Below, piece by piece: positions 1-55,651 of a stretch of DNA of 64,000 nt. The translations under genes were made by a program, and so were the position numbers. Source of the stretch: Schmidtea polychroa (Eukaryota); the NCBI GenBank assembly GCA_044892525.1, contig CM097885.1, positions 13,704,001-13,768,000 of the forward strand, given 5' to 3'. Within the stretch, counting starts at the first letter, position 1, and each line of letters opens with the position of its first letter. Below the pieces are notes generated by a model. That model searched no databases. It was not told the origin of the DNA and worked only from the letters and a program-made list of their open reading frames with translations.

Positions 1-30
1 ACTGAAATAGAGAACCCAACAGATGACCTT

Positions 31-1518
31 ATGAAAGAAATACTTTCAACATCGAAAGATTCTCCAATAGGTTACTTTATAGAATGCGACCTCGACTATC
101 CAGATGATATAAAATCAGGAACAAGATATTTTCCTTTAGCTCCCATAAGAGGAAAGATTGATATCAACGAACTTTCTGAATGGCAAATCTCACAAGATAA
201 ACCTCCAACAATGAAACTTCTTTGTGATCAAACAGATCGAAGGTTTTATCTTTGTCACTATAGACTCCTCCAATTTTATCTTTCACGAGGTATGATATTA
301 AAAAAAGTTCATAGTGTCATAAGATTTAAACAAGCTCCATTCATGAAAGCTTTTATCGAGGAGAACATTAGGTGCCGAAACATTGCAAAAAGAGAAGGTA
401 ATCTTTTTAAAGATAATAATTATAAAATTTTAAACAATTCAGTCTTTGGGAAAACAATGGAGAATGTTGATAAATATACTCATATTGAACTCCTAACAAA
501 TACTACCAAAGATATTAAGCGTTATAATCGCATGCTAGGAAAGTCTACATTTAAAAACGCACAAGTATTTTCTGAAAATCTTACTGCAGTAGAATTAAAA
601 AATTATGAGAAAACATATAACAAACCAATATTTATAGGGTTTACAATTTTAGAACTTTCAAAATTACAAATGTATGAAACATATTATAACATCTTACAAC
701 CTATATACGGAGCAAATATATCAATGCATGCAATGGATACAGATTCAATGTTTTTAACAATAAGAACTCATGATTTACAAAAAGATATGAAAGAAAATCC
801 TATACTTTCAAATTTAATAAATTCATCTGGAGAACTATTTTCGTTTAAAGATGAAAAACCTTTTACTCCTATAGAAAATGGAATATTTATTCGTGCTAAA
901 CAATATTCATACGAAACATTTAGAAACCCTGAATTTATAACTAGATCATTTATATTTAAAACTCCAGAAACAGAAGAAACCATTACACATAGATATCCTA
1001 TATTTCCTAAAGAAGAAAAACCTGTAAAGGATAACAGATGTAAAGGAATACAGAGAGTGGTTGCAAAGAATCTTTCTCATCAAGATTATATAGATACATT
1101 GAATCCAAATCATAAAGATAAAATTGATGAAATACATCAACTTAAATGTGAAAACCATGATATTCACTTGATAGAATCTCAAAAAGTATCATTATCAAAT
1201 TATGATGATAAGAGATTCATACTAAGTGATTTAAAGACAACTCTACCTATTGGAAATAATTTAATCCCTATAACAAAAAATCTAGAAAAGTTGAATAAGT
1301 TATATGATACAAAGATTACTGATCTTGATATTTATAATGTTGAAATTATTTATCCCGAGAGAGAAATCAAGAAACCTTTATATTCTCAAGTTTTTAATCC
1401 TATATGTTTAGAACTTAAATATTTTAATACTGATCCTGAATATATAAAAGGTCTAAGTGATAAAGAATTTAAAGATCATAAATTAATGATTCATAGGTTG
1501 GCTTTCAACCATAACTGA
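31..1518 (+). CDS. polB: Protein-primed family B DNA polymerase (pPolB), C-terminal part; gene starts upstream of the window
   Basis: Motifs KILNNSVFGK, MDTDS, KQYS, KGI and DDKR; frame is open from position 1. Confidence 0.93.
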   Translation: MKEILSTSKDSPIGYFIECDLDYPDDIKSGTRYFPLAPIRGKIDINELSEWQISQDKPPTMKLLCDQTDRRFYLCHYRLLQFYLSRGMILKKVHSVIRFKQAPFMKAFIEENIRCRNIAKREGNLFKDNNYKILNNSVFGKTMENVDKYTHIELLTNTTKDIKRYNRMLGKSTFKNAQVFSENLTAVELKNYEKTYNKPIFIGFTILELSKLQMYETYYNILQPIYGANISMHAMDTDSMFLTIRTHDLQKDMKENPILSNLINSSGELFSFKDEKPFTPIENGIFIRAKQYSYETFRNPEFITRSFIFKTPETEETITHRYPIFPKEEKPVKDNRCKGIQRVVAKNLSHQDYIDTLNPNHKDKIDEIHQLKCENHDIHLIESQKVSLSNYDDKRFILSDLKTTLPIGNNLIPITKNLEKLNKLYDTKITDLDIYNVEIIYPEREIKKPLYSQVFNPICLELKYFNTDPEYIKGLSDKEFKDHKLMIHRLAFNHN

Positions 1519-6868: not shown

Positions 6869-8287
6869 TTAAAAATCTGTTTTCTGTAGTTCATTATTAT
6901 AAAATCTACCTAATATTTTTTCATTATTTAAATCAATGATGCTATATGTTATTGGAGTTGTATAATTTATTTTATTTATAATAAAAATTTCATTTGTCCA
7001 TTTTGCTGTGAATCCTTTTTCAAATTTATTTTTATATTTAAATATTCTTACTCGGTCACCAATTTTAAACTTTGGTTTTTCAATAACATCATTTTCAATA
7101 TTTACCACTTTAATGGTTTCAGGCTTCATGGAAGCATTTAAAGGTGTTAATTTTATAGAACTATGTACATCATTATTATATTCATTTACAATCTTTTGTA
7201 ACAATTCATTGTTCCATTTTTGTTTTCCAATAGCAGTAAAATATTTCCACATTTTATTTTTTAATGTTCTATTTAATCTTTCAACTACGACTGCTTTTCC
7301 TTCGTTTTCTGTTGAATATCATTTTCATTTAATATCATTTTCATTTAAAAACTTTGTAAAAACTTTGTTATAAAATTCTGTTCCTTTATCACACCATAAA
7401 TATTTTGGGATTCTTTGATTTTCTTCAAATATATTTTCAAATGCTTCTGTAATAGAATATCCTGTTTTATTTTCTAAACATCTTGCAAAAGCAAATCTTG
7501 TATATAAATCTATTACAGTTAAAATTATTTTATATTTTTCAGGGTCTGATGATTTGGGCATAAAGACTAAATCTGCAGACCATGTTTGATCTTTTTCATG
7601 TACTTGAACTTTTAAATATTTTTTATTTTTTCTAAATTCATGGTGTAATTCCTTTGCATATTTTATTTCTGATTCTGTTGGGGTTTGTAAACTAGTCTTG
7701 GCTGTACTCTCGAGGGATCTTTCAATCTCTGCTTGTTCGATAATCTTTTTATAAGCAACATCTTTTGCTTTCCTAGGAAGTCTTGCACCCATGGTGATCG
7801 GACTGTGTCCTAAGCCTATGAAAATCTTACCTCTCATTGCTAATTTAACTAGAGCTCTTTGAATCTTTTCTTGGGTTGATGGATTTTGGATACTATTTAA
7901 ATCATGTATTAAATTCACATCTGCAACATGTCTATCTCTAAGATTTGTTGAATTGTATGCAATGTCATGTTTTAAAGCTGCTTGATCAATTCTATTTATT
8001 GGTTCTTCTCCTTGTTTGGGATTATTATTTTCATCTAATCTAATATCTAGACGTGTTCCTGGTCCAGTATAGTTGTGTTTAAATAAATGTCTTTCACCTG
8101 GATATTTTTCTGTAGTAAAAGGTTTTAATATTGAAGATGTTGTTTTTGAAGATTGCAAATCGCCTCCAGCTCGTGGAATTAGGTCACCTACTGTATGTTT
8201 TTTAGTTTTAAGATGACTTGCTTTATGATGTCTTGTAACTTGACAATTACAAGTTTCACATCTCCAATAGGGTTTATTTAAAGACAT
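6869..8287 (-). pseudogene. ZnF-PLA2-retroviral-type integrase fusion interrupted by in-frame TGA stops near 7320
   Basis: C2H2 motif, NYTGPGT..DQAALKHDIAY, rve DDE motifs (ADLVFM, CDKGTEF, VERLNRT). A local duplication of AAATGAAAATGATATT adds two TGA codons relative to the intact E2 copy. Confidence 0.88.
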
Positions 8288-8304: not shown

Positions 8305-9597
8305 TTAAGAATCTCCCCTAACATTTTCAATAATTGAAATCTTTCCACCATATAATTTCATTTCTATTTTCTTTTCTTCTAATATTAATGTATATACTTT
8401 AGCTTTAAAATTAGAATCCTTTGTTACATGAAGTGTAACATCAACATTATTTATGGCTAATCGATCATCTTGGTCTGATACATTTATACAAAATATAGAA
8501 TATAAATTTTTGAATTCTTCTAAACTTAACTGCGGTTCAACTTTGAAATCATAACATGTTTCAATATAATTTAGATATGGGAATATGTTTTCATTATTTT
8601 CAATATTAAATTCCATTCTATTTATTGGATAATAAGAACTATTTAATTGAATTTGGATTGTTTTTAAATTATCATCTCCAATCTTTTGAATAAATAGATT
8701 GTTATTTTTTTGGAAAGATGAATCTGTTTCTTTGAATCCAATCAAGATATATCTTGGTCGGTATGCTAAATTTGCTACCTTTATAGAATATGTTGAACCC
8801 TCTGTCATACTAAATTCACTACAGATTCTATTTAAATAATTTACATTTATAGACTTGTTGGAATTTAATCTTTCAAGGAGTTTAATCTCAGAATGTGGGT
8901 TTAATGTCCATTCAGGTATATGTAATTCAAGTGTTGATAATTTTAATTTAGCTTTTGTATCTACAGCTCCATAGAACAATCTTTTATCACCTTCTACTCT
9001 ATTACAGATGAATTCTATAAAAACATTATGAAGTATACGATTATAGTTTTGAAGGAATCCAAACAAGTGTTTTATTTCAAAATAACCTTCAAATTTTTTA
9101 GATTTATAAAGTTCAGCTCTTTTATGGTAACCATGGTTTACATCTAAACCATCTTTATCTAAATCCCCTTTATTAACATCAGGAATCCAACCTGTTAATT
9201 CACCATATTCGTTTTTATAATCACAACCAGTCAAAATAAAATTTAACATTGTAGAATATACTCCCGGATGCAAAACAGTTTCAATTTCTGATGATCCTAG
9301 TTTTAATCTCATGTTGGAGAATAAATTTGGAAAGAAATTATTTTCTAGGGTTATATCTTTGTTTGCTTCAATTTCTAATTCTACTTTGTAATATAATTTG
9401 GCATTACAAATATCTATTGGGTTTGATGTTTGAAGAGATTGAAAAACTATATCACCCCTACGATTTAAGTTTGCAATAGATCCTGAAGTTGGCGAGATTT
9501 TTAAAATATCATTTTTTTAAATTTCATGAGTAAATTCTTTATTATAATCAAGATTTAATTTATTTTTTTCTTGAATTTTAAGATTTATATTATTCAT
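8305..9597 (-). pseudogene. Major capsid protein (double jelly-roll) with nonsense codon at 9517-9519
   Basis: Colinear and highly similar to the 438-aa ORF at 52147; codon 27 is TAA here and AAG in E2. Confidence 0.8.
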
Positions 9598-9683: not shown

Positions 9684-9947
9684 ATGATTGACTTTATTGA
9701 AAGAATGAGAAATGAATTGAATGAAGTTAAACTTAAGAGAATAAAAAGAATAGAAGAAGAACCATTAGAATACATTAAAGAGTTGGTGGTAGAGAATGAA
9801 AAGTATCGACATTTTTACATGAATGCAGTAGAAGTAGCTGAGAAAAGATTAGATAAAATAAAACAATTACAGGAAAGAATAAAGAACTTGAATCGATTAT
9901 TTAAAAAAATGACAAAAAATGCAAACCTTGATGGCGCAGTGGGCTAG
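9684..9947 (+). CDS. Small coiled-coil hypothetical protein
   Basis: 87-aa ATG-initiated, charged heptad-rich ORF divergent from the capsid gene. Confidence 0.5.
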   Translation: MIDFIERMRNELNEVKLKRIKRIEEEPLEYIKELVVENEKYRHFYMNAVEVAEKRLDKIKQLQERIKNLNRLFKKMTKNANLDGAVG

Positions 9948-10003
9948 ACTGACACAGTGGTTTAAAATGCTAGTGGTTCAAATCACATCTGAGGTTAGTT
10001 TTT
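9924..10003 (+). ncRNA. Candidate Pol III small RNA copy 1 (tRNA/VA-like)
   Basis: A-box TGGCGCAGTGG 9932-9942, B-box GGTTCAAATC 9975-9984, T8 run 9999-10006; 5' AACCTTGATG can pair with 3' CATCTGAGGTT. Confidence 0.6.
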
Positions 10004-10155
10004 TTTCAACATAAAATAATATTAAAAATTTGAAAATAATATTGAAAATAGTGTGGGTATCTTATATTTATAAAGTACTTGTATATTTTATTTTATTTAT
10101 TTTATTTTATTTTATTTTTTTATAAATTAAAAATTAAAAAAATGACAAAAATTCA

Positions 10156-10236
10156 AACCTTGATGGCGCAGTGGGAATAGACTGGCACAGTGGTTCAAAT
10201 GGATAGCGGTTCAAATCACATCTGAGGTTAGTTTTT
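10156..10236 (+). ncRNA. Candidate Pol III small RNA copy 2 (tRNA/VA-like)
   Basis: A-box 10164-10174, B-box-like GGTTCAAAT at 10192 and 10208, T8 run 10232-10239. Confidence 0.6.
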
Positions 10237-10403
10237 TTTCAACATAAAATAATATTAAAAATTTGAAAATAATATTGAAAATAGTGTGGGTATCTTATAT
10301 TTATAAAGTACTTGTATATTTTATTTTATTTATTTTATTTTATTTTATTTTTTTATTAATTAATTATTTTTTAAACATAAATATGAAAAAAAAAATATTG
10401 AAA

Positions 10404-10765
10404 CGGGTGATGGTGGCGAACCGGTAATTATCGCCACCTGTCTTTCGAACACCCCGGATCGATTCTTTAATGTGCACATTTATTTCTCAGTTGATTTCGG
10501 ACCTCTTTCGAATTCGCTTTCGAATTCATTTGTACTTTCGAGCAGCACACTTAAAACGCCGATGAAATCGTATTCGAGCGAGAAGCGAATAATAAGGTGT
10601 GCTGCTATTATCGGATTGATTCTGATGTATGAGTCTGGCCAGCTTGTATATTGGAAGAGATTCGATAAACGAAAGAGGTTGAATAAAAAAAAAATGATCC
10701 GGATCAAAAAAACTGTTGAGAGGACAGTGAAAAAAAAAATACCACTGTCCTCTCAGAGCAGTTTT
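10404..10765 (+). ncRNA. Candidate structured RNA or ssDNA region (multiple stems, possible pseudoknot)
   Basis: Complementary pairs 10412-19/10431-38, 10501-10/10670-79, 10512-19/10583-90, 10541-50/10597-606 and 10717-29/10743-55. Confidence 0.45.
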
Positions 10766-11159
10766 ACTATTTTTCATTTATTTTTTAATTTATATAATTT
10801 AAAATCAATAATCTGATAAAGATCAAATAGCCCTCTAACTTTTTCATAATGCCATTTTCTTTTCTATTCTCTTTTTAGTTTGAAGCTTTTGAGTTTGAGG
10901 CTTTAAAGATTAAAACAGTTAGAGTCATTAAGGGTGGTTGTTTTCAAAATATAGGGTTAAAATACTATTAAAGTATAAGTTTTAGGTTGTTTTTCTAATA
11001 GCTTAAGTGATTTGGAGGCATGTTTTTGTTGGGGGGCTGTTTTGGTTGGGTATATAACCACACTACTTAATCCGAATTTCTGTGATTTTAGAAATTTAGT
11101 TCTTATATACTTTATAAAATGTCAATTGAAAAGAAATCAGAGGTGAAAATTGAAAAAGG

Positions 11160-11480: not shown

Positions 11481-14212
11481 ATTAAAGATAGAAGATAAAA
11501 CTAGAGGGAAAACATTAAGTAAAGTCAAAAGAATTGATTAATGTTGCAGAACGTGCAAAGCCAGAGTGGTTATAGTGAGATTAGACTATTTTGAATAGTC
11601 AAAATAGGCATTTTATTGTGATGTTCTGAGTTTTGTAACTTGAAGTTTATACGAATTTGATTACAAATATACGTTTAGTGTTGTTTATCTAATTGTTGTT
11701 ACAGAACACATAGAGTCAGAAACACAGAGGTTAATACTTATAGTAGTATGTAGTAAGGACTCCAGCGCACTTTCAAGGTCATGGAATATCAAGATCAAAT
11801 ATAGGTCAATTGAATCATTTATTTATTTATTTATTTATTTTTTTTTTAAATTAACATTTTATTTAATTACTTCTTTTTAATTTTTTCTTTTTAATTTTAT
11901 TAATTAATTATTTTATGATGTTATATTTTAATTACTTACTTTATATAATTTTTAATTTATTACATTTAATTAATTTATTAGTTTATTAATATTTTATTTT
12001 AATTACTTACGCTTTATTATTATTTATTTTTATTTTTATTTATTTATTTTTTTTTATTTTATTATTTTTTTAATTAATTAATTTATTTTTTAATTTAAAT
12101 TTTATTTAATTACTTCTATTTATTTTTCTTTTTATTTTTCTTTTTTTTCTTTTTAATTTTATTAATTAATTATTTTATGATGTTATATTTTAATTACTTA
12201 CTTTAGTTAATTTTTAATTTATTACATTTAATTAATTTATTATATATTTTTTTATTATATATATTTTAGATTATAGTTTAAATTATTATTAACCTTAAAA
12301 TCAAATCAATATGTTTTACCAAAGGTTTTAAACAAACTCTCGATTTGAAAACTAAAACTTAAATTTTCTTTTGGAAATAAACACATTAAATAAATGCAAC
12401 GCTATAATTAGTAGGTTAATGCTTTTCAAATGAAATATTTATCTAAACTTGAAGACAAAAAATTACAGTGTTTTTCACTTAAATTAAAAATATTAAAAGA
12501 TATACTAATCAGGAAAGAAACAAAATTTATAGAAAGTAATTACATTATTCATTCAAGTAAAGGTAAACCACCTCATGCAATGAAACGAAACTGATTAACA
12601 CTGATATAAACTTCTCTTATTATGCTCTTTAATTTCTCCCTTTATATGTTGTTTCTCTTTTGTATTGAACCAGAATGGCAACTTGATTAAAATTTAAATT
12701 CTTTTTAAAAGGCTCTCTCTGCTAGTCTGTGAAATCAAACTCAAATAATAGCTCACGAGGACCCGAAAGTTTTTCAAATTATATTTTTTGGTTTTAGCTT
12801 GACAGGTTCACAATTGTTGAATGATGAGGGTAGGACCATCACCACATTCACCCTCAACAAATACTATATGAAGGGGCACAGGAAATATAGGGTCAATATA
12901 TGTGCCGAAGAAAGGCGATAGATCCGAGATGTGACCATGCGACCCAATTAATTCCAAAAACAATTCAATCAATCCAAGTCAATTCAAAACAATCTGAAAA
13001 CATGACAATTGACTATCCTTGAACTATTTGACAATTTATGCATATTTTTTATATTCTTTATCATCTATGTGAAAATGATTTATGTGTATTTTTATTTTGA
13101 CAATTAATCGTTTGACAATTACGTATGATCAGTTATATATATTTTTATGGTATCGGGTGTATATATTTAATAGCTTGAGTATTTTATTTTTGATTAATCT
13201 TTTAATCGGTATAAATAAATGATTTCAATATAATTTTTATCTATACAAGGGAAATATATTTTAAATAAATTAATAATAATATGAAAAACAAAATTTTAAT
13301 TAAAGGTAAAATTCCCTTTTCAAAAAGCAGAAATAAAATCATTAAAAAACAGCTGGAAAGATTTAGTCAGAATAATTCAAGTATTTTTGAATTAATTGAA
13401 AATAAAAATAAAATAACATCTGTAAGAAAAATAATATAATCTATTCTTAAAATCACATTCGAAAAAAATACATTCTTAATATTACAATTGAAATAATTTG
13501 AGTATAGTATAAATACCCCAAATATATTTAGTATATTTGCCAAAAATTAGCGTTATAGCGATTTCGAAGGTTAATTCGTAGAAATAATTAAAACCCGAGA
13601 TAGCACAAAATTGTCTCACAAAATTTTGAAGAAAGCAGTAATTTTTACATAAGCTCGCATTACATAGCATATTAACAAAATACATATTTGTAATCATTTT
13701 AAAGTAGCTCGAAAGCAATTGAATAAAAGAAATAATTGTTTAAATTAATAATACTATTTTATTTGGAAATTTGCACTATTTATTTTAGGTAATTTTTATT
13801 ATTAATAAATATTTATACTGAGACTTGGTTTTATTTATATAAGAACCAGCAAAGTTGAGTGTTTCAAATATTGGGACCTCAACACAATTTTATCTGTCAA
13901 ACTCGGGTATCACGTTCCTAATTAAATAATAAAATATCATTTAAAAATCAGATTTATTGACAAAAAATTATAAATAAAAATACAAGTTAAAGATCATATT
14001 GAAATAAAATTGTTTTAAGCTGCACAGTAGAATTGCTAGTAGAGTCTGTTACTTATGCGGCATTCAGTTTCCTGTTTTACTTTTGTTTGAACTTTCCCAT
14101 GTGAGGTTTTGTTAGTTTCCTCTGGCTCGTTGTGACAGTAGACATCGATTGTTTCTCCAAGAGTACATAAAGTTCAGATAACACATTTTCCCAGAGTTTT
14201 AATTAAATAAGT

Positions 14213-15334
14213 AGTAGTATGTAGTAAGGACTCCAGCGCACTTTCAAGGTCATGGAATATCAAGATCAAATATAGGTCAATTGAATCATTTATTTATTTA
14301 TTTTTTTTTTATTATTTTTTTTTTAAATTAACATTTTATTTAATTACTTCTTTTTAATTTTTTCTTTTTAATTTTATTAATTAATTATTTTATGATGTTA
14401 TATTTTAATTACTTACTTTATTTAATTTTTAATTTATTACATTTAATTAATTTATTAGTTTATTAATATTTTATTTTAATTACTTACGCTTTATTATTAT
14501 TTATTTTTATTTTTATTTATTTATTTTTTTTTATTTTATTATTTTTTTAATTAATTTATTTATTTTTTAATATAAATTTTATTTAATTACTTCTATTTAT
14601 TTTTCTTTTTATTTTTATTTTTTTTCTTTTTAATTTTATTAATTAATTATTTTATGATGTTATATTTTAATTACTTACTTTAGTTAATTTTTAATTTATT
14701 ACATTTAATTAATTTATTAGTTTATTAATATTTTATTTTAATTACTTACGCTATTTAATTATTATTATTATTTTATTTATTTATTTATTTTTTTTTATTT
14801 ATTATTTTTTATTTATTTATTTATTTATTTATTAATTAATTTATTTTTATTTATTTATTTTTATTTTTTTTTAATTAAAATTTTATTTAATTACTTCAAT
14901 TTATTTATTTATTTTTTTTTTATTTTTTAATTTTCTTAATTAATTATTTTATTATGTTTTTATTTTAGTTACTTACTTTAGTTAATTTTTAATTTATTAC
15001 ATTTAATTAATTTATTAGTTTATTAATATTTTATTTTAATTACTTACGCTTTATTATTATTTATTTTTATTTTTATTTATTTATTTTTTTTTATTTTATT
15101 ATTTTTTTAATTAATTTATTTATTTTTTAATTTAAATTTTATTTAATTACTTCTATTTATTTTTATTTTTATTTTTATTTTTTTTCTTTTTAATTTTATT
15201 AATTAATTATTTTATGATGTTATATTTTAATTACTTACTTTAGTTAATTTTTAATTTATTACATTTAATTAATTAATTAGTTTATTAATATTTTATTTTA
15301 ATTACTAATGTTATTTAATTATTATTATTATTAT

Positions 15335-15370
<36 letters not shown>

Positions 15371-15375
15371 TTTTT
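14213..15375 (+). repeat. E3 terminal repeat (inverted copy): ~75-bp unique end plus AT-rich tandem array
   Basis: Same sequence as 11742-12240 and the reverse complement of 26615-27515; the number of TTAATTACTTAC-containing units differs between copies. Confidence 0.85.
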
Positions 15376-15691
15376 TAAATTTTACATTTACATTATATTC
15401 TAACAAGAGCGTAAATTATAACAGTAATATTTCAATTTGAATAAAATTTTAATGAGAAATTATTTAATTTATTATAAAATAAAACGCTGAGTTAATTTTA
15501 GATAAACCGGATATTAATTTTTCGGAAAAAATAAATAAATAAATAAAATAAACACGAAAATAATATTTCTTACTTGAAACTAATTATCTAAATTAATTGG
15601 ACAAATAAATAATTAAATGATAAAACACATTTTAATTAACTAAGTCAAATAATTCACAATATATATTTTATTATTCACATAAATTTAATTG

Positions 15692-18600
15692 TTAAAGTGC
15701 TTGTTTCGATTTGCATTCATTTATAGACGGAGCAGTTGCAATATGCATTTGGCGAATATTATAGTGACCGTAGGCATAGCTTTCATTAGAATTGAACCAA
15801 TATCTTTTATCATCCAAACATTGGAGAGCTCGTTTTTCTGTAATGAAAGTATACAACTGATGATTAACACTTCCTATTCTCTTTTGTTGGATGCTCACTG
15901 TTCCACCATCAGTATACACTTTTTTATAAGCTTCATGGGTGATATTAGAATTTGTAAGACTTATTCCTTTGGCTTTTAGAGTGTTTTATCGCCTTGGAGT
16001 GAGTAGCATTTGGGTCGAAGAAACACCCATTCTTTATATAATAACCCTTTATTCTCATCCTTAACTTTCCCGATTACCGAACAAATTTTATCAGAGAACA
16101 ATGGATCAGTCACTGGATAATTTGAAGTATCTAGGAGCCCATCTTCAATCATTTTTGGATATAGTTGTAAGCGTAAATCAACATTTTTACACTCTAAAAA
16201 GAAGGAATCTGTGTCACCGGCTACGATATTAATTTGACAATTGAATTCTTCTCTATAACTCTGTAGTTCTTTATATTGAAACTGGTACATGCGAAGTTTA
16301 GATAAATCAAGTACGGTTTGTCCAATATACATTGGTCTATCTAAACACACCATTTCCTTATCAAGTATAACAGCAATGAGATCATCCGCAATCTTGATGC
16401 TACGACGAAACATAGGATTACTACAATAAGTTATCAATCTTTTGCTTTTGCTGCATAATCTCAAATTTATACGTTTCTTCAAGTTTTCCACAGTTTTACC
16501 GTATAAACTGTTGTTCTTTAACTTATAATAATCTCGCTGAAACGAATCCGTACTAGCTGCTCTCATTTTGGTATTGTAATCAATATATCCTTTGAAAATA
16601 GCCACTTGCTTGAATTCTACAGCACGATTAACTTTTGTGACCTTTGCGCCGTAACTCATCCACTCTGTCAAAATTCTACCATTAACTACATAGTTTTTCT
16701 TAGGCTCATGAGTTAACAACAGCTTTTCAACTTTACTACCAGGTGGATAACAAAGCTCAGGAGCTATAGGTAAATCATCTAGCTTATCTTGTATACTATC
16801 AGGAATGACGATGTCAACCTCTAGAACATATCCACGATATCCATCAAACTCATCCCCATTTGCACATCTTTCAACAATACCATTCATTTCAGTCTGATCA
16901 TTTATCCATCTAAATTCACCAATAGGAAGTTTTTGCGACAGTGCCCATCCATATAAATTATTAACATCTAGGTATGACATTTGTGTTGATTCATCAGCTT
17001 CAACATGATGTTTGTTGATAAATGTCATTCCACCACGAATACCAGCTTCAAATAAACGGTAAAGCTCTGGATCTTGAATAAGTTCTACCGGTTCAGGTAA
17101 CTGTTTAATAGCTGATGCCCAACTTAATCCGGGTATGGAAACAAACGATAAAGCCTCAAGTCCATCTTCGTCAAATGTTTTTTCTCTGAAAGCTTCAAAA
17201 ACATCGGCCAACAGAAAAACATCCAGCTTGAGATATACTAGCATGTAATCTAGCAGTGTCTCACAGTTGTATTGTTGCCAAATTCGATTTGCATGTATAT
17301 AATCTTCTTCACTAACTCCCTCCCAAATCAGTGGTAATTCTGTTATTGACTGTAAAGCATCCATTGATGTAGCCATATCATAAGGAAAAATGGTTTTACA
17401 AGTCATCATCTGCGATTCGAAAACATCTGAGGTCAGTGGAAGACATGGTAAATTTTTTGATAAATTTGCCAAGCTGCTATTTAAAAATTGTAAAGAATCA
17501 ATGAATCTAATTCTTCTGCCTTTCGATGTCGCTGTAAATGTGAGAAACTTTTCTGTTGATTGAGGAATAACATTTAAATTCCAATCAGGGAATTTTCCAA
17601 TTGCATATTTTAATATATGATGAATGTCATATCCACGAAGATTATGAAATACAACAGGTAAAGACGGATTGATTCTTCTAGCCAAGTTGCAATCTTGACA
17701 TGGTGCTCCGAGATATTGACCAGTAAAATGATCATGATCTCGAACAGGTATATTGATAATCTTTTTACAAAGGTAGCAATGAGTTTGATTCGTAAATTCT
17801 TCCTGCTGTTCCCAAGTGAGTTCCATCATTTCCTTTGATCCATTAATTTTATACCACGGATAAACTATGTCTGTAGCTATATCATCCAATGCTTGTATAA
17901 ACTTAATGATACAGTTTTTCCCAACAAATGTTTCATTTCGGATCGGACAACCTTGATGAAGAAGCACAAATTCAGATGCAATCGGCTCATGTTTTTGGAA
18001 GTGCTTGTCATCTAGAGGTAATATCGATTCAAAGTCCGCGTAGACAACAAACTGCTGTTTTATAGTTTTACTCCAGTCTTTAAATTCGATATATTTATTC
18101 TCTGGCATTGAGTATAGAGTCGTCCGCTCCACATTCTTCCTACAAAGACCTATATGTCTTTCAAAAGCAGGACGTTTTTGAAACCCATGAAGACATGTAT
18201 GACACCAATGTGATTGGATTCTGACTCCTTCTACTCTATCTCTGTAATTGAGCAGTCGATCGAGATTAGTTACAGCCAAAAAATGATAATTTAATTCTAA
18301 AATTTAGTTAATATTTTTAATGATTAAAGGAAATATTACCTTCTTCAATCAATAAGAGATATATCTGAGATCCCGTCGAAGTACTTCTATATACCAAGTC
18401 AACGAACGGATTCTTGAAAATATCATTAGTTTTTTGTTTAATTGGATCTTTATTATATTTGAGAACATTGATCGCTAGATTTGGATTCATTGCTTCAAAT
18501 TGGCAAATGTTAACCAACTTCATCGGAAACCATTCAAATTTCCATTTTAAGTCTTAAAAACAAAATTCAATGATATATGACATTATATATATATATATAT

Positions 18601-19679
18601 ATATATTACCACTTAAGTTATATTTTGTTGTTCTTTCTCTATCCCGACGTATGTCATCATAACGTAATACGGCCAGTATGCTATATAAAAAGCAGAATTG
18701 ATCATTATTTTGAACATTAACTAAAGCCTGGCAGTTTTTCAGGTAATTTGGCGTTTTAATGTAACTTGAACCTAAGTAAATATCTTGATTTATATATAAT
18801 AATGTAAATAAACTTACCAGATACATGTATTATGTCTGATAATTTAGTTAAAATCATAGTAACTTCTAATATTTTATGAATTCTCCACCCACTACTTTGT
18901 TGAGTGTATTTCTCCAACTTTTCTTTTAATTTTTCAATTCCATCATTAATAAATGAAGATGACATTGTAATTGCTTTATTCGACAAACACCATTTTTTAA
19001 TTTCACCATCCTCTTTGATAAACTCTGCACAAAGTCCAAATTGGATTTTTACTGTACCCATTCGTTGAATATGATCTTCTATTTCTTTGATGAGACAATC
19101 TGGAACAACAATGTCAGGAGAATTAATTGCAGATACATCGCTTGTCAATTCAACACGAGAACCATTTAAGTCAGACTCCCGACGTGGACACAATTGTATG
19201 TTAGAATCTCCATTTCCGTAAAATATTGACTTTCGTTTTGTGGTGCCAGAGTTTTGTCTAACTATATTTATAATTAATATTAAACAACTTAAATAACATA
19301 ACTTGTAACATATTCTTTAATCTGCTTAGGATCGTATGATGTATTCATTTTCGATTGTACTATAAAAATTAATAATTGTTAATAGTAGAAAGAGTATTAC
19401 TTTTAGTGATCATCCTGCTCTTCGTTTCTTCGAATCTTCTAAGATGGTGTCCGTGTTGTCGTACAAACATTAACCACCTACCTGGTGATATAATGAGACA
19501 TTCCGGACATATGTAACCCGATAAGGTAGAGTCATTTATCTTGAAATATGATGATGTAACTGATTTACAGTTCTCCACATCTTCATGACTTTCGGCAATA
19601 CAAAATTTATATAAACTGCATCCGTTCACTAAAAGAAAATAATCATTAATATTAGATAGAGAATAAAAAATTATTCACT
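15692..19679 (-). CDS. polB: Intron-containing pPolB, mirror copy (introns 19629-19678, 19360-19400, 19262-19302, 18772-18817, 18553-18609, 18297-18339; frameshift near 15985)
   Basis: Reverse complement of the 22309-26298 gene model. Confidence 0.85.
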
Positions 19680-19949
19680 TATATAAGTTAAATTAAAAGT
19701 TTAAATGACAAACATTTGAAAAGTTACTGCTTATATATTACACATGATTACATTCTGACCAACCAAAATCAAGGAAGGGGTAGGAAAAATAAATATATTC
19801 TGACCAATCAAAATCATGGAAGGGGTAGGAAAAATAAATGCATTACGTTGCAGTATTTTAAAATTTAAATTTTAAAACACATTTTAATGCTAAAGTTGAC
19901 TTATTCAACATTTTCATAATAATTTAATAAAAAAATAATGCGATGAACC

Positions 19950-20600
19950 CACAAAGTAATATCATTTTTCATCAAATTGCAAAACAGTAATAACGTTTTC
20001 ATAAAATTGTAACAAAGTAATAACATATTTCAGATAAATTTTCAACAGTTGTAAAATATTTAAGCAAATTGTAACAAGATTAGAAAATATTACAACAAAG
20101 TAGTAACATATTTCAGAAAATTTCAACAAAGTTGTAAAATATTTATCAAATTGTAACTAAAATAATAAAAATATTGCAACAAAGTAATAAAATAATGATG
20201 TTAATTGGGACAAATCAATACATTATTTCGAAGACGGACAACAAATTAAAAAGAATATTGTAATAAATTGTGAAGTCTTTCAGTAAATTACAACAAAGTA
20301 ATAACATATTTCGGAAATATTTCAACAAAGTTGTAAAATATTTATCAAATTGTAACTAAAATAATAAAAATATTGCAACAAAGTAATAAAATAATGATGT
20401 TAATTGGAACAAATCAATGCATTATTTCGAAGACGGACAACAAATTAAAAAGAATATTGTAATAAATTGTGAAGTCTTTCAGTAAATTACAACAAAGTAA
20501 TAACATATTTCGGAAATATTTTACCAGATGTAAAATATTTAAGCAAATTGTTATAAGATTATAAAAATATTGCAACAAAGTAATAAAATAATACAACATT
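19950..20600 (-). repeat. Degenerate tandem array (~199-bp period), left arm
   Basis: Repeated CAACAAAGTAATAA submotifs; mirror of 21390-22040. Confidence 0.8.
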
Positions 20601-21389
20601 TTAAACTCTAGATCAATCCATTTTATAGAAAATTAAATTTTATCTCTATAATATATGAATAAATATACAAGGAAATTACGTTAACTGTATGAAAAATACA
20701 AATTTATCGTAAAAACATGTGTGTATTACACACAAAGCGACAAACTAAAGTTTTAATTGAGCCATTTTGTAGAGAATTAAATTCTGCCTATACATTGTTA
20801 CACTTAAATCCCAATCGAACAAAGAGAAAAGAGAGAAAAAGAGAGAGAAAAAACAGTAGAGTAGGGTATTGTGTGGACCCGAGAACAAAGACATATGACG
20901 TCATCGATGACGTCACAAAGACATATGAGGAGGGGGTATTTTTTTAAAATTTTTTTTTAAATTTTTTTTAAAAATTTTTTTTTAAAATTTTTTTATATTA
21001 CGTTGCGGTATTTTAAAATTTATATTACGTTGCGGTATTTTAAAATTTAATTATATTTTATTCACATCATTCGAAAGGTCTTGAAGAGATCTATGCAAAG
21101 CTTTCACCCGGGTCCACACAATACCCTACTCTACTGTTTTTTCTCTCTTTTTCTCTCTTTTTTCATTGTTCAATTGGGATTTAAGTGTAACAATGTATAG
21201 GCAGAATTTAATTCTCTACAAAATGGCTCAATTAAAACTTTAGTTTGTCGCTTTGTGTGTAATACACACATGTTTTTACGATAAATTTGTATTTTTCATA
21301 CAGTTAACGTAATTTCCTTGTATATTTATTCATATATTATAGAGATAAAATTTAATTTTCTATAAAATGGATTGATCTAGAGTTTAAAA

Positions 21390-22040
21390 TGTTGTATTAT
21401 TTTATTACTTTGTTGCAATATTTTTATAATCTTATAACAATTTGCTTAAATATTTTACATCTGGTAAAATATTTCCGAAATATGTTATTACTTTGTTGTA
21501 ATTTACTGAAAGACTTCACAATTTATTACAATATTCTTTTTAATTTGTTGTCCGTCTTCGAAATAATGCATTGATTTGTTCCAATTAACATCATTATTTT
21601 ATTACTTTGTTGCAATATTTTTATTATTTTAGTTACAATTTGATAAATATTTTACAACTTTGTTGAAATATTTCCGAAATATGTTATTACTTTGTTGTAA
21701 TTTACTGAAAGACTTCACAATTTATTACAATATTCTTTTTAATTTGTTGTCCGTCTTCGAAATAATGTATTGATTTGTCCCAATTAACATCATTATTTTA
21801 TTACTTTGTTGCAATATTTTTATTATTTTAGTTACAATTTGATAAATATTTTACAACTTTGTTGAAATTTTCTGAAATATGTTACTACTTTGTTGTAATA
21901 TTTTCTAATCTTGTTACAATTTGCTTAAATATTTTACAACTGTTGAAAATTTATCTGAAATATGTTATTACTTTGTTACAATTTTATGAAAACGTTATTA
22001 CTGTTTTGCAATTTGATGAAAAATGATATTACTTTGTGGG
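21390..22040 (+). repeat. Degenerate tandem array (~199-bp period), right arm
   Basis: (A/T)TTT(C)CGAAATATGTTA-type motif recurs at ~21471, 21670 and 21869; shorter TTATTACTTTGTTG subrepeats. Confidence 0.8.
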
Positions 22041-22149
22041 TTCATCGCATTATTTTTTTATTAAATTATTATGAAAATGTTGAATAAGTCAACTTTAGCA
22101 TTAAAATGTGTTTTAAAATTTAAATTTTAAAATACTGCAACGTAATGCA

Positions 22150-22260
22150 TTTATTTTTCCTACCCCTTCCATGATTTTGATTGGTCAGAATATATTTATT
22201 TTTCCTACCCCTTCCTTGATTTTGGTTGGTCAGAATGTAATCATGTGTAATATATAAGCA
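22150..22260 (+). promoter_or_regulatory. Putative Pol II promoter of E3 pPolB
   Basis: Duplicated TTTTCCTACCCCTTCC.TGATTTTG(A/G)TTGGTCAGAAT unit (inverted CCAAT-like) followed by TATATAAG at 22251, about 58 bp before the predicted start. Confidence 0.5.
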
Positions 22261-22308
22261 GTAACTTTTCAAATGTTTGTCATTTAAACTTTTAATTTAA
22301 CTTATATA

Positions 22309-25300
22309 AGTGAATAATTTTTTATTCTCTATCTAATATTAATGATTATTTTCTTTTAGTGAACGGATGCAGTTTATATAAATTTTGTATTGCCGAAAGT
22401 CATGAAGATGTGGAGAACTGTAAATCAGTTACATCATCATATTTCAAGATAAATGACTCTACCTTATCGGGTTACATATGTCCGGAATGTCTCATTATAT
22501 CACCAGGTAGGTGGTTAATGTTTGTACGACAACACGGACACCATCTTAGAAGATTCGAAGAAACGAAGAGCAGGATGATCACTAAAAGTAATACTCTTTC
22601 TACTATTAACAATTATTAATTTTTATAGTACAATCGAAAATGAATACATCATACGATCCTAAGCAGATTAAAGAATATGTTACAAGTTATGTTATTTAAG
22701 TTGTTTAATATTAATTATAAATATAGTTAGACAAAACTCTGGCACCACAAAACGAAAGTCAATATTTTACGGAAATGGAGATTCTAACATACAATTGTGT
22801 CCACGTCGGGAGTCTGACTTAAATGGTTCTCGTGTTGAATTGACAAGCGATGTATCTGCAATTAATTCTCCTGACATTGTTGTTCCAGATTGTCTCATCA
22901 AAGAAATAGAAGATCATATTCAACGAATGGGTACAGTAAAAATCCAATTTGGACTTTGTGCAGAGTTTATCAAAGAGGATGGTGAAATTAAAAAATGGTG
23001 TTTGTCGAATAAAGCAATTACAATGTCATCTTCATTTATTAATGATGGAATTGAAAAATTAAAAGAAAAGTTGGAGAAATACACTCAACAAAGTAGTGGG
23101 TGGAGAATTCATAAAATATTAGAAGTTACTATGATTTTAACTAAATTATCAGACATAATACATGTATCTGGTAAGTTTATTTACATTATTATATATAAAT
23201 CAAGATATTTACTTAGGTTCAAGTTACATTAAAACGCCAAATTACCTGAAAAACTGCCAGGCTTTAGTTAATGTTCAAAATAATGATCAATTCTGCTTTT
23301 TATATAGCATACTGGCCGTATTACGTTATGATGACATACGTCGGGATAGAGAAAGAACAACAAAATATAACTTAAGTGGTAATATATATATATATATATA
23401 TATATAATGTCATATATCATTGAATTTTGTTTTTAAGACTTAAAATGGAAATTTGAATGGTTTCCGATGAAGTTGGTTAACATTTGCCAATTTGAAGCAA
23501 TGAATCCAAATCTAGCGATCAATGTTCTCAAATATAATAAAGATCCAATTAAACAAAAAACTAATGATATTTTCAAGAATCCGTTCGTTGACTTGGTATA
23601 TAGAAGTACTTCGACGGGATCTCAGATATATCTCTTATTGATTGAAGAAGGTAATATTTCCTTTAATCATTAAAAATATTAACTAAATTTTAGAATTAAA
23701 TTATCATTTTTTGGCTGTAACTAATCTCGATCGACTGCTCAATTACAGAGATAGAGTAGAAGGAGTCAGAATCCAATCACATTGGTGTCATACATGTCTT
23801 CATGGGTTTCAAAAACGTCCTGCTTTTGAAAGACATATAGGTCTTTGTAGGAAGAATGTGGAGCGGACGACTCTATACTCAATGCCAGAGAATAAATATA
23901 TCGAATTTAAAGACTGGAGTAAAACTATAAAACAGCAGTTTGTTGTCTACGCGGACTTTGAATCGATATTACCTCTAGATGACAAGCACTTCCAAAAACA
24001 TGAGCCGATTGCATCTGAATTTGTGCTTCTTCATCAAGGTTGTCCGATCCGAAATGAAACATTTGTTGGGAAAAACTGTATCATTAAGTTTATACAAGCA
24101 TTGGATGATATAGCTACAGACATAGTTTATCCGTGGTATAAAATTAATGGATCAAAGGAAATGATGGAACTCACTTGGGAACAGCAGGAAGAATTTACGA
24201 ATCAAACTCATTGCTACCTTTGTAAAAAGATTATCAATATACCTGTTCGAGATCATGATCATTTTACTGGTCAATATCTCGGAGCACCATGTCAAGATTG
24301 CAACTTGGCTAGAAGAATCAATCCGTCTTTACCTGTTGTATTTCATAATCTTCGTGGATATGACATTCATCATATATTAAAATATGCAATTGGAAAATTC
24401 CCTGATTGGAATTTAAATGTTATTCCTCAATCAACAGAAAAGTTTCTCACATTTACAGCGACATCGAAAGGCAGAAGAATTAGATTCATTGATTCTTTAC
24501 AATTTTTAAATAGCAGCTTGGCAAATTTATCAAAAAATTTACCATGTCTTCCACTGACCTCAGATGTTTTCGAATCGCAGATGATGACTTGTAAAACCAT
24601 TTTTCCTTATGATATGGCTACATCAATGGATGCTTTACAGTCAATAACAGAATTACCACTGATTTGGGAGGGAGTTAGTGAAGAAGATTATATACATGCA
24701 AATCGAATTTGGCAACAATACAACTGTGAGACACTGCTAGATTACATGCTAGTATATCTCAAGCTGGATGTTTTTCTGTTGGCCGATGTTTTTGAAGCTT
24801 TCAGAGAAAAAACATTTGACGAAGATGGACTTGAGGCTTTATCGTTTGTTTCCATACCCGGATTAAGTTGGGCATCAGCTATTAAACAGTTACCTGAACC
24901 GGTAGAACTTATTCAAGATCCAGAGCTTTACCGTTTATTTGAAGCTGGTATTCGTGGTGGAATGACATTTATCAACAAACATCATGTTGAAGCTGATGAA
25001 TCAACACAAATGTCATACCTAGATGTTAATAATTTATATGGATGGGCACTGTCGCAAAAACTTCCTATTGGTGAATTTAGATGGATAAATGATCAGACTG
25101 AAATGAATGGTATTGTTGAAAGATGTGCAAATGGGGATGAGTTTGATGGATATCGTGGATATGTTCTAGAGGTTGACATCGTCATTCCTGATAGTATACA
25201 AGATAAGCTAGATGATTTACCTATAGCTCCTGAGCTTTGTTATCCACCTGGTAGTAAAGTTGAAAAGCTGTTGTTAACTCATGAGCCTAAGAAAAACTAT

Positions 25301-26298
25301 GTAGTTAATGGTAGAATTTTGACAGAGTGGATGAGTTACGGCGCAAAGGTCACAAAAGTTAATCGTGCTGTAGAATTCAAGCAAGTGGCTATTTTCAAAG
25401 GATATATTGATTACAATACCAAAATGAGAGCAGCTAGTACGGATTCGTTTCAGCGAGATTATTATAAGTTAAAGAACAACAGTTTATACGGTAAAACTGT
25501 GGAAAACTTGAAGAAACGTATAAATTTGAGATTATGCAGCAAAAGCAAAAGATTGATAACTTATTGTAGTAATCCTATGTTTCGTCGTAGCATCAAGATT
25601 GCGGATGATCTCATTGCTGTTATACTTGATAAGGAAATGGTGTGTTTAGATAGACCAATGTATATTGGACAAACCGTACTTGATTTATCTAAACTTCGCA
25701 TGTACCAGTTTCAATATAAAGAACTACAGAGTTATAGAGAAGAATTCAATTGTCAAATTAATATCGTAGCCGGTGACACAGATTCCTTCTTTTTAGAGTG
25801 TAAAAATGTTGATTTACGCTTACAACTATATCCAAAAATGATTGAAGATGGGCTCCTAGATACTTCAAATTATCCAGTGACTGATCCATTGTTCTCTGAT
25901 AAAATTTGTTCGGTAATCGGGAAAGTTAAGGATGAGAATAAAGGGTTATTATATAAAGAATGGGTGTTTCTTCGACCCAAATGCTACTCACTCCAAGGCG
26001 ATAAAACACTCTAAAAGCCAAAGGAATAAGTCTTACAAATTCTAATATCACCCATGAAGCTTATAAAAAAGTGTATACTGATGGTGGAACAGTGAGCATC
26101 CAACAAAAGAGAATAGGAAGTGTTAATCATCAGTTGTATACTTTCATTACAGAAAAACGAGCTCTCCAATGTTTGGATGATAAAAGATATTGGTTCAATT
26201 CTAATGAAAGCTATGCCTACGGTCACTATAATATTCGCCAAATGCATATTGCAACTGCTCCGTCTATAAATGAATGCAAATCGAAACAAGCACTTTAA
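22309..26298 (+). CDS. polB: Intron-containing pPolB, ~1236 aa if repaired (introns 22310-22359, 22588-22628, 22686-22726, 23171-23216, 23379-23437, 23651-23693; 1-bp frameshift near 26005)
   Basis: Splicing joins the ORF fragments in frame and restores GSSYIKTP..NVQNNDQFCF, FPMKL..FE and HFLAVTNLDRLL. Also present: YADFES, DHDHFTG..CQDCN, FHNLRGYD, YLDVNNLYG, KLKNNSLYGK, GDTDS; KAKG and DDKR lie in the shifted frame. Confidence 0.88.
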
Positions 26299-26619
26299 CA
26301 ATTAAATTTATGTGAATAATAAAATATATATTGTGAATTATTTGACTTAGTTAATTAAAATGTGTTTTATCATTTAATTATTTATTTGTCCAATTAATTT
26401 AGATAATTAGTTTCAAGTAAGAAATATTATTTTCGTGTTTATTTTATTTATTTATTTATTTTTTCCGAAAAATTAATATCCGGTTTATCTAAAATTAACT
26501 CAGCGTTTTATTTTATAATAAATTAAATAATTTCTAATTAAAATTTTATTCAAATTGAAATATTACTGTTATAATTTACGCTCTTGTTAGAATATAATGT
26601 AAATGTAAAATTTAAAAAA

Positions 26620-26655
<36 letters not shown>

Positions 26656-51887: not shown

Positions 51888-52099
51888 AGTAGTGTTAGAA
51901 CTATACACCTGAGCACACCCACCGCAAAGCGTCCAATTCCAAAGCCCTCAATTATTACCCTTTAATATAAAAAAACAACAGTTTTTTTACACGTTTTAAT
52001 ATATTTTAACCGAAAAAACCCAAAACAAAGCCCTCTGTCCGAGCCCGATGGAAAGGGAAGAGATGAGGGTGCGCTCAGGTGTATAGTTCTAACACTACT
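51888..52099. repeat. Polinton terminus copy B closed by an inverted 33-bp terminus (52067-52099)
   Basis: TATTCA|AGTAGTGTTAGAACTATACACCTGAGCACACCC ... GGGTGCGCTCAGGTGTATAGTTCTAACACTACT, 32/33 complementary. Confidence 0.85.
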
Positions 52100-52146
52100 A
52101 ACAGCAGCTGGCGCAGTTTACTAATTTTTAATTTTTATAATAAAAA

Positions 52147-53463
52147 ATGAATAATATAAATCTCGAGATTTCAGAAAAAAATAAATTAAATCTTGATTAT
52201 AATAAAGAATTTACTCATGAAATCAAGAAAAATGATGTACTTAAAATCTCCCCAACTTCAGGATCTATAGCAAATTTAAATCGTGGAGGTGATATAGTTT
52301 TTCAATCCCTTCAAACCTCAAACCCAATAGATATTTGTAATACAAGATTATATTATAAAATTGAATTAGAAATTGAAGCAAATAAAGATTTAACTCTAGA
52401 AAATAATTTCTTTCCAAGTTTATTCAACAACATGAGATTAAAACTAGGATCATCAGAAATTGAAACTGTTTTATATCCAGGAGTATATTCTACAATGTTA
52501 AATTTTATATTAACTGGTTGTGATTATAAAAATGAAAGTGATGAGTTAACGGGTTGGATTCCTGATGTTAATAAAGGTGATTTAGATAAAGATGGTTTAG
52601 ATATAAATTATGGATATTATAAAAGAGTTGAACTTTATAAATCTAAAAAATTTGAAGGTTATTTTGAATTAAAACACTTATTTGTATTCCTTCAAAAATA
52701 TAATCGAGTACTTCATAATGTTTTTATAGAATTAATCTGTAATAGAAAAGAAGATGATAAAACAATATTCTATGGAGCTGCAGATACAAAAGCTAAATTA
52801 AAATTATCAACACTTGAATTGCATATACCTGAATGGACATTAAATCCTCATTCTGAAATCAAACTCCTTGAAAGATTAAATTCCAACAAATCTATAAATG
52901 TAAATTATTTAAATAGAATCTGTAGTGAATTTAATATGACAGAGGGATCGACTTACTCTATAAAAGTAGCAAATTTAGCATACCGACCGAGATATATCCT
53001 GATTGGATTTAAAGAAACAGATTCATCATTCGAAAAGAATAACAACTTGTTTATTCAAAAGATTGGAGATGATAATTTAAAATCAATCCAAATTCAATTA
53101 AATAGTTCTTATTATCCAATAAATAGAATGGAATTTAATATTGAAAATAATGAAAACATATTCCCATATCTAAATTATATTGAAACATGTTATGATTTTA
53201 AAGTTAAACCACAATTAAGTTTAGAAGATTTCAAAAATTTATATTCTATATTTTGTATAAATGTATCAGATCAAGATGATCGTCTAGCTATAAATAATGT
53301 TGATGTTACACTTCATGTAACAAAGGATTCTAATTTTAAAGCTAAAGTATATACGTTAATATTAGAAGAAAAGAAAATAGAAATGAAATTATATGGTGGA
53401 AAGATTTCAATAATTGAAAATGTACGAGGTGATAATATCTCTATAAAAAATGTCTCTAAATAA
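52147..53463 (+). CDS. Major capsid protein (double jelly-roll)
   Basis: 438-aa intact ORF; size, gene context and RPRYILIGF / YP..RMEF / SIFCINVS pattern. Confidence 0.8.
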   Translation: MNNINLEISEKNKLNLDYNKEFTHEIKKNDVLKISPTSGSIANLNRGGDIVFQSLQTSNPIDICNTRLYYKIELEIEANKDLTLENNFFPSLFNNMRLKLGSSEIETVLYPGVYSTMLNFILTGCDYKNESDELTGWIPDVNKGDLDKDGLDINYGYYKRVELYKSKKFEGYFELKHLFVFLQKYNRVLHNVFIELICNRKEDDKTIFYGAADTKAKLKLSTLELHIPEWTLNPHSEIKLLERLNSNKSINVNYLNRICSEFNMTEGSTYSIKVANLAYRPRYILIGFKETDSSFEKNNNLFIQKIGDDNLKSIQIQLNSSYYPINRMEFNIENNENIFPYLNYIETCYDFKVKPQLSLEDFKNLYSIFCINVSDQDDRLAINNVDVTLHVTKDSNFKAKVYTLILEEKKIEMKLYGGKISIIENVRGDNISIKNVSK

Positions 53464-54823: not shown

Positions 54824-54834
54824 GTCGACAAGCT

Positions 54835-55635: not shown

Positions 55636-55651
55636 TTTTATTTATTATAAA

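What the first reader, a model, noticed from the sequence alone, without database searches (positions are those of the whole stretch)
9903..10355. Tandem pair of Pol III-type small RNA genes inside a Polinton/adintovirus: VA-RNA analogues?
Seen: each 232-bp unit holds a ~80-nt cassette with a consensus A-box (TGGCGCAGTGG), B-box (GGTTCAAATC), complementary ends (AACCTTGATG / CATCTGAGGTT) and an immediate T8 run. The two copies differ mainly between the boxes, while ~130 bp downstream is identical. The cassette does not fold as a canonical tRNA (no D-stem partner, imperfect T-stem). Knowledge: adenoviruses encode Pol III VA RNAs with internal A/B boxes that counter PKR and RNAi. Inference: an analogous ncRNA pair in a Polinton-like virus; I am not aware of one being described.
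Basis: partly seen in the sequence, partly recalled or inferred. Interest (0 to 1): 0.8.

Follow-up and report, generated by a model that had tools for sequence, protein, structure and literature searches.

The report
Worn tRNA promoters in Polinton ends
A virus-like jumping element with thousands of copies in an AT-rich animal genome carries, inside the repeats at both of its ends, worn-down tRNA-like units that keep the signals for RNA polymerase III but no conserved fold, so they likely act as landing pads for that machinery rather than as adenovirus-style decoy RNAs, while a strongly folded neighbouring stretch is the better candidate for a working RNA.

Summary
It sits in the inner part of the Polinton's terminal inverted repeat (TIR), is mirrored at the other end, and the unit has about 3,100 genome copies; one or two per end, two being the minority. 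All 60 sampled loci lay in Polinton ends, so it is not a SINE. Across 96 copy variants the B-box and T-run are almost invariant and the A-box varies only within its consensus, whereas the 5' and 3' 'stem' blocks vary freely and do not covary. The unit fails the VA-RNA structure test (77 nt, no significant fold). Sister ends carry two older paralogues, one still scoring weakly as a tRNA. Best reading (0.45): Pol III promoter modules that work in cis, beside the starts of the polymerase and capsid genes. A strongly folded ~365-nt stretch just downstream (10400-10770) is the better VA/TMER-like candidate. Transcription could not be shown. This scan already noted the same system on four other copies in this genome, and Pol III-type units in Polintons of two other genomes.

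The parts
9899..11067 (.). Right terminal inverted repeat of the Polinton (ends ...ACACTACT at 11067)
   Evidence: 9899-10772 matches the other end (L031 4278-5156, inverted) at 98.6%; the left copy lacks the outer ~295 bp; sister copies end at the same base
9923..10006 (+). tRNA-like Pol III-type unit Z, copy 1 (A-box 9932-9942, B-box 9975-9984, T8 9999-10006); points outward
10155..10239 (+). Unit Z, copy 2 (A-box 10164-10174, second B-box-like word 10191-10199, B-box 10208-10217, T8 10232-10239)
9901..10363 (+). 233-bp tandem duplication holding the two units; copy-number variant of the TIR
   Evidence: single and double ends
10400..10775 (+). Strongly folded multi-hairpin stretch, candidate larger non-coding RNA, ending in T4/T5
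   Evidence: z -9.93, 0 of 100 shuffles; conserved in 77 copies with a few two-sided changes; 2656 exact copies of a 27-mer
9684..9947 (+). Small conserved ORF (about 70-87 aa by copy, no Pfam match) between capsid start and unit Z in some subfamilies
8305..9597 (-). Major capsid gene (double jelly roll), broken in its 5' part in this copy; runs away from the units
   Evidence: Pfam PF21738 on the 335-aa ORF; 438-aa ORF in the copy at 52147
6869..8287 (-). PLA2-like domain + rve integrase, in two ORFs in this copy
1..1518 (+). 3' part of the protein-primed DNA polymerase B; it starts before the window, 76 bp from the A-box of the left-end unit

Best explanation
The two units are tRNA-like A-box/B-box/T-run cassettes built into the Polinton's terminal inverted repeats, and they likely work as DNA: they would load TFIIIC, TFIIIB and RNA polymerase III at both ends of every copy, probably making short U-ended RNAs whose sequence matters little. 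Shown: position in the TIR, copy number, kept boxes, free variation between them, closeness to the gene starts. Inferred: origin by decay and repeated ~235-bp duplication of a captured tRNA gene; factor binding; transcription. Inferred purpose: a nucleosome-free, barrier-like patch that shields the head-to-head polymerase and capsid promoters and the neighbouring folded-RNA gene from host silencing, as tRNA genes and B-boxes do in yeast. The tandem pair in this window is the youngest round of that duplication, not a VAI/VAII-like division of labour.
For: B-box identical in 95 of 96 distinct copy variants; A-box in two common forms that both fit TRGCNNAGTGG (52 and 39 of 96); T-run minor-letter fraction 0.011, against 0.155 (5' block), 0.219 (spacer) and 0.096 (3' block). 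5' and 3' blocks combine freely, duplex energy -2.3 to -11.6 kcal/mol over 25 combinations, no covariation (115 of 1000 permutations). Paralogues X and Y repeat at ~235-240 bp in sister ends and keep box-like words and T-runs although otherwise diverged; Y scores as a tRNA (26.7 bits, E 0.006, below the 29-bit cut-off). In 74 of 100 rows a unit's A-box lies 44-64 bp from the oppositely oriented start motif, whichever unit it is (rows include repeats of one place). The Y homologue in a tandem repeat is 65/72 and 98/116 identical in the flanks but 6/15 just before the A-box, with both boxes kept: the place where active tRNA loci are most mutable (PMC6130373, passages). tDNA/B-box barriers need intact A and B boxes (PMC7990762, passages); Polintons are piRNA-silenced at chromatin level in a planarian (PMC8532177, passages).
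Against: The AT-rich flanks are as conserved as the boxes (0.008 and 0.029), so recent spread and TIR homogenisation could explain box conservation without selection. At this window's right end a small ORF separates the unit from the capsid start (334 bp; 21 of 100 rows have that layout). Residual end-to-end complementarity is above letter-shuffled level (-6.7 against -3.4), which fits some role for the RNA. No binding, chromatin or transcript data. No homologous end from another species was reached. Barrier function is documented for yeast and human tDNAs, not for this host.
Confidence: 0.45

Rival explanations
1. The ~77-nt U-ended RNAs are the functional product, acting in trans as decoys (for La, PIWI/Argonaute, tRNA-handling proteins) like VA RNAs, EBERs or the tRNA-like part of TMERs; the variable blocks would be escape from host small RNAs.
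For: Complete gene anatomy with an immediate T8; about 3,100 templates; invariant GGTTAG before the T-run and residual terminal pairing; in MHV68 the tRNA-like part alone rescues pathogenesis (10.1101/795278, passages).
Against: No significant fold, no covariation, half the length of BocaSR (140 nt) and without apical stem or central domain (PMC8242256, passages); no Rfam match. PKR is a vertebrate protein (recalled), so that part of the analogy likely does not apply.
Confidence: 0.18
2. The units mainly serve the folded ~365-nt RNA downstream, as extragenic promoter elements or as the head of a read-through precursor that is cut into hairpin RNAs (TMER-like or foamy-virus-like cassette in a terminal repeat).
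For: 28 of 30 loci picked by the folded stretch have the unit's B-box 170-260 bp upstream; the stretch has no perfect B-box of its own by the scan; it is conserved (0.02-0.04 against 0.17-0.23 in the outer TIR) with G-U pairs on the same strand as the units; Pol III miRNA cassettes occur in foamy-virus LTRs (PMC7693620, passages).
Against: T8 plus seven further runs of 4-7 T lie between unit and folded stretch; most copies have a T4 about 91 nt into the folded stretch; paired and unpaired positions vary equally (0.026 each); only 2 of 101 predicted pairs show two-sided change in 12 copies.
Confidence: 0.17
3. Inert passenger: a piece of host DNA with decayed tRNA copies was captured long ago, became part of the TIR, and is carried along; conservation reflects recent amplification.
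For: A 290-bp piece holding paralogue Y is 81-84% identical to a ~1.25-kb non-Polinton tandem repeat; flanks as conserved as boxes; X and Y are absent from many ends, this one included.
Against: At least one unit is kept in 20 of 20 capsid-anchored loci and in 98 of 100 rows; three diverged paralogues and many diverged alleles all keep boxes and T-run while blocks between them turn over.
Confidence: 0.17
4. Head of a genome-wide tRNA-derived SINE that inserted into the Polinton.
For: tRNA-like boxes; high copy number.
Against: 60 of 60 sampled loci have Polinton TIR downstream or capsid/polymerase sequence upstream; T-run directly after the B-box region, no SINE body or poly(A) tail in the sequence; many matches come as minus/plus pairs 12-15 kb apart. 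Only about 60 of 3,093 places were inspected.
Confidence: 0.03

Closest known systems
Adenovirus VA RNA I/II (Rfam RF00102, accession recalled) and bocavirus BocaSR
   Same: Intragenic A- and B-box promoter, T-run end, carried by a linear dsDNA virus-like element of the adenovirus-related group; two neighbouring units in this copy
   Different: 77 nt against 140 nt for BocaSR; no apical stem or central domain, no conserved terminal stem; sits in both terminal repeats; copy number per end varies; no function shown
MHV68 TMERs (tRNA-miRNA-encoded RNAs)
   Same: Several tRNA-like Pol III units clustered at a genome end, with hairpin-rich sequence nearby
   Different: TMERs have a tRNA-like fold and hairpins in one transcript (10.1101/795278); here the cloverleaf is lost and T-runs separate unit and hairpins
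tDNA / B-box chromatin barriers (yeast HMR tRNA-Thr, centromeric tRNA-Ala; TFIIIC sites)
   Same: Function would rest on A/B boxes and factor loading, not on the RNA; units flank a domain on both sides
   Different: Known cases are host boundaries; here a mobile element would carry its own; not tested
tRNA genes in polinton-like viruses, virophages and MELD viruses
   Same: tRNA-related sequence inside Polinton-related elements (PMC12220804: 558 tRNAs in 8300 genomes; PMC8502044: figure legend)
   Different: Those are intact tRNAs found by ARAGORN/Rfam and read as codon support; these units escape both tools and cannot decode
Foamy-virus Pol III miRNA cassette in the LTR U3
   Same: Pol III cassette placed in a terminal repeat of an integrating element, so present at both ends
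   Different: Retrovirus; product is a proven pri-miRNA; here only the neighbouring folded stretch has miRNA-like hairpins

Membership tests
Polinton/Maverick (adintovirus-type) | Protein-primed PolB, rve integrase, double-jelly-roll capsid, packaging ATPase | tested here: met
   PF03175, PF00665, PF08398, PF21738 in this copy; PF04665 only in the sister copy at 54838-55635
Polinton/Maverick (adintovirus-type) | Long terminal inverted repeats | tested here: met
   880-bp inverted match at 98.6%; left end truncated
VA RNA / BocaSR | Intragenic A- and B-box promoter with T-run terminator | tested here: met
   (sequence only)
VA RNA / BocaSR | Terminal stem, central domain and apical stem in a ~140-160-nt RNA | tested here: not met
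   77 nt, z +0.24 to -1.69; no Rfam hit; features from PMC8242256, VA length recalled
VA RNA / BocaSR | Conserved terminal stem | tested here: not met
   25 combinations of 5' and 3' blocks, no covariation
VA RNA / BocaSR | Abundant Pol III transcript that counters host defence or helps replication | not testable with these tools
   no raw small-RNA reads available
TMER | tRNA-like fold at the 5' end | tested here: not met
   ARAGORN finds nothing on unit Z even at lowered threshold
TMER | Pre-miRNA hairpins in the same transcript | tested here: inconclusive
   hairpins exist 165 bp downstream but behind T8 and seven more T-runs
tRNA gene | Cloverleaf with anticodon arm | tested here: not met
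   paralogue Y keeps D- and T-arms only
tRNA-derived SINE | Dispersed copies independent of a host element, with body and tail | tested here: not met
   60 of 60 loci in Polinton ends
tDNA/TFIIIC barrier | Intact A- and B-boxes | tested here: met
tDNA/TFIIIC barrier | TFIIIC/TFIIIB occupancy and block of heterochromatin spread | not testable with these tools
   needs ChIP and a reporter assay

The most novel reading that the evidence does not exclude
An animal Polinton carries a complete Pol III non-coding RNA module in both terminal repeats: tRNA-derived units plus a conserved ~365-nt multi-hairpin RNA that works in trans against the host's RNA-based defence, the functional counterpart of adenovirus VA RNAs in the presumed ancestral group, and a general but overlooked feature of Polinton ends because the units escape tRNA scanners.
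Probability: 0.25. Interest if true: 0.8.

Novelty: new variant of a known kind. Interest (0 to 1): 0.5.

Why it matters
Polinton terminal repeats are treated as replication and integration signals. If they also carry Pol III modules, these elements have a way to keep their promoters open in a host that silences them with piRNAs, or their own non-coding RNAs as adenoviruses, bocaviruses and gammaherpesviruses do. About 3,100 extra A/B-box units would also be a sizeable load of potential Pol III and barrier sites in the host genome. The units are invisible to ARAGORN and Rfam cut-offs, the tools used in the one published ncRNA survey of polinton-like viruses that I read (PMC12220804), so they would have been missed there.

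Tried and rejected
Expression: no RNA holder listed. Four runs only guessed to be RNA were laid (contigs): contigs of X1 and X2 lie on both units and on the folded stretch, but they give no strand, ends or level and may be DNA or piRNA-sized fragments; not used for or against. X3 and X5 gave only short pieces, mostly 38-60 letters, largely on AT-rich parts. Parent tRNA of unit Z: tRNA-Trp scored best of 7 host isotypes (44-45) but below the score between genuine isotypes (Trp-Lys 55, Trp-Arg 77), and another allele preferred Lys, so no parent can be named; tRNA-Sec rejected (23-29); Y is closest to Cys (58, also within that background). 7SL origin of the folded stretch rejected (899 of 1000 and 78 of 200 shuffles as good). 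'T4-free, hence one Pol III transcript' rejected: true only for this copy and one other with a measured core. Spectrum of rare changes as a sign of transcription-linked mutation: inconclusive, flank counts inflated by indels. Ten stretches around two other Polinton families noted earlier, or beside them, and one metagenome contig showed no unit with perfect boxes; their termini were not located. Literature: 'Polinton' + 'VA RNA' 0 papers; Polinton + polymerase III + tRNA + TIR 2 general reviews, listing only; searches listed nothing on Pol III units in Polinton ends; subscription journals and Repbase Reports are not covered; no supplements were read.

Full report
Observation. A generic scan for A-box, B-box and T-run finds only these two in the window, and 1 hit in 10 shuffled windows. 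ARAGORN finds no tRNA; Rfam gives no match on the units at E<=10; folding is no better than shuffles (z +0.24 to -1.69 in six trials).

Context. The flanking genes are those of a Polinton: PolB, rve integrase with a PLA2-like domain, double-jelly-roll capsid; PLA2-like genes mark one adintovirus virion module (PMC8502044, passages). The element ends at 11067. Fetching the DNA before the window shows the same pair, inverted, at the other end: 9899-10772 matches at 98.6%. So the units are in the inner part of the terminal inverted repeat, four per this element, all pointing outward. At the left end the A-box is 76 bp from the polymerase start codon. In this copy the capsid and integrase genes are broken and the left end is truncated.

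Copy number and SINE test. The 24-nt 3' core has 1,658 exact copies and a pattern that admits all alleles has 3,093; reversed controls gave 0. All 60 loci examined (30 best-scoring, 30 in chromosome order, a few overlapping) had TIR sequence downstream or capsid/polymerase sequence upstream. Conversely, 20 of 20 loci picked by the capsid gene had at least one unit. Tandem pairs are a minority: 12 of 88 sites among the first 100 rows (a lower bound) and 8 of 20, with different allele pairs.

Paralogues. A lead from an earlier scan note led to sister ends that carry two further units, X and Y, at ~235-240-bp spacing before unit Z. Of 100 rows (some repeat one place) 39 were XYZ, 27 ZZ, 29 Z, 3 YZ and 2 had a damaged A-box; X and Y were seen only on the capsid side; in 74 rows the first A-box lay 44-64 bp from the oppositely oriented start motif, in 21 a small ORF came between, as in this window. 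Y scores as a tRNA just under the cut-off, with D- and T-arms kept and acceptor and anticodon stems broken. The units are therefore tRNA relics that were duplicated repeatedly; the pair here is the latest round. The parent isotype of Z cannot be named.

What is conserved. In 96 distinct unit-plus-flank variants the B-box is identical in 95 and the A-box has two common forms that both fit the consensus. The block before the A-box, the spacer before the B-box and the block after it are the variable parts (0.155, 0.219, 0.096 minor-letter fraction), more so than the AT-rich flanks (0.008, 0.029). The 5' and 3' blocks mix freely: the window's haplotype pairs well (-11.0 kcal/mol), others reach only -2.3, and 115 of 1000 permutations do as well as the observed 25 combinations (one of them mis-anchored). 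The Y comparison repeats the pattern: flanks 84-90% identical, 6 of 15 just before the A-box, boxes kept. Active tRNA loci are most mutable around their start (PMC6130373, passages), so this is an indirect hint of past Pol III transcription; it is an inference. Against over-reading: flanks are as conserved as boxes, and counts are of related copies, not of independent events.

The neighbour. 165 bp downstream, 10400-10770 folds very strongly (z -9.93), has 2,656 exact copies of a 27-mer, is far more conserved than the outer TIR (0.02-0.04 against 0.17-0.23 in 77 copies), keeps 7,730 of 7,918 pair cells, and shows two clear two-sided changes and many G-U/A-U/G-C swaps on the same strand as the units. 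Against: paired and unpaired sites vary equally, the covariation term is unfavourable (+1.41), most copies have a T4 91 nt in, and hairpins could matter in single-stranded DNA during strand-displacement replication (inference). It is unrelated to host 7SL RNA and has no Rfam family. It is the better candidate for a VA- or TMER-like RNA.

Mechanism. Shown: TIR position, copy number, box retention, no conserved fold, closeness to gene starts. Inferred: TFIIIC binds the boxes and loads TFIIIB on the AT-rich leader (general model in PMC7990762, passages), Pol III makes ~77-nt U-ended RNAs, and the occupied patch keeps the element's end promoters open or bounds them against silencing; Polintons are piRNA targets at chromatin level in a planarian (PMC8532177, passages; the host here is probably a planarian, a guess supported only by earlier scan notes). 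I give this 0.45; a trans-acting small RNA 0.18; service to the folded RNA 0.17; inert passenger 0.17; SINE 0.03.

Comparison. It shares promoter type with VA RNA and BocaSR but not size or fold (PMC8242256, passages); it resembles TMER clusters in layout but lacks the fold and the joined hairpins (10.1101/795278, passages); foamy viruses offer a precedent for a Pol III cassette in a terminal repeat (PMC7693620, passages). Intact tRNAs are known in polinton-like viruses (PMC12220804, passages). My searches found no paper on degenerate Pol III units in Polinton ends; a review of giant transposons had no tRNA mention (PMC6431247, passages). Within this scan the same system was noted on four other copies in this genome and Pol III-type genes in Polintons of two other genomes; these are unchecked notes, not support.

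Verdict. Real feature, new variant of a known kind, not a VA RNA by structure, transcription untested. Interest 0.5.

Noticed in passing
window 10400-10775: Conserved, strongly folded multi-hairpin stretch in the TIR, including a ~55-nt G-U-rich hairpin at 10610-10665 shaped like a pre-miRNA; its first domain pairs GGGU with ACCC, the tetranucleotide pair recalled for VA RNA (may be chance).
   Followed up: partly
L207 4794-5083 and repeats every ~1.25 kb (G000:C1:141000-150999): Tandem repeat with 17-bp subrepeats that carries an 81-84% homologue of unit Y with A-box, B-box and T-run kept; direction of capture unknown.
   Followed up: partly
window 12259-29469: Large palindromic element (arms 99-100% complementary) with two inverted 710-aa PolB ORFs; no Pol III-type unit found in it by the scan.
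   Followed up: no
window 51888-52099 and 51132: Short element with Polinton-type AGTAGT...ACTACT ends, sitting where the TIR of the second Polinton copy should begin.
   Followed up: no
window 52124-64000: Second Polinton copy (84-97% to the first, inverted), lacking its TIR and interrupted by an LTR retrotransposon with 98% identical LTRs at 58009 and 62753.
   Followed up: no
window 9684-9947: Small charged ORF of about 70-87 aa kept open in most copies that have it, no Pfam match.
   Followed up: partly
L031 5145-5192: The left TIR ends in a vestigial copy of the capsid gene's first codons, directly before the polymerase start, so the TIR boundary once ran to the capsid start.
   Followed up: partly
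G000:C1:13.65-14.43 Mb (L118-L129): At least 13 tRNA-Sec gene copies or relics cluster around this window; host tRNA genes otherwise form very large tandem arrays (about 840 Trp copies at 284-bp period on C4; Cys at 281-bp period on C1).
   Followed up: no
L054, L055, L048: The internal ~16-bp word holding the B-box-like sequence varies from one to three copies inside unit Z.
   Followed up: no
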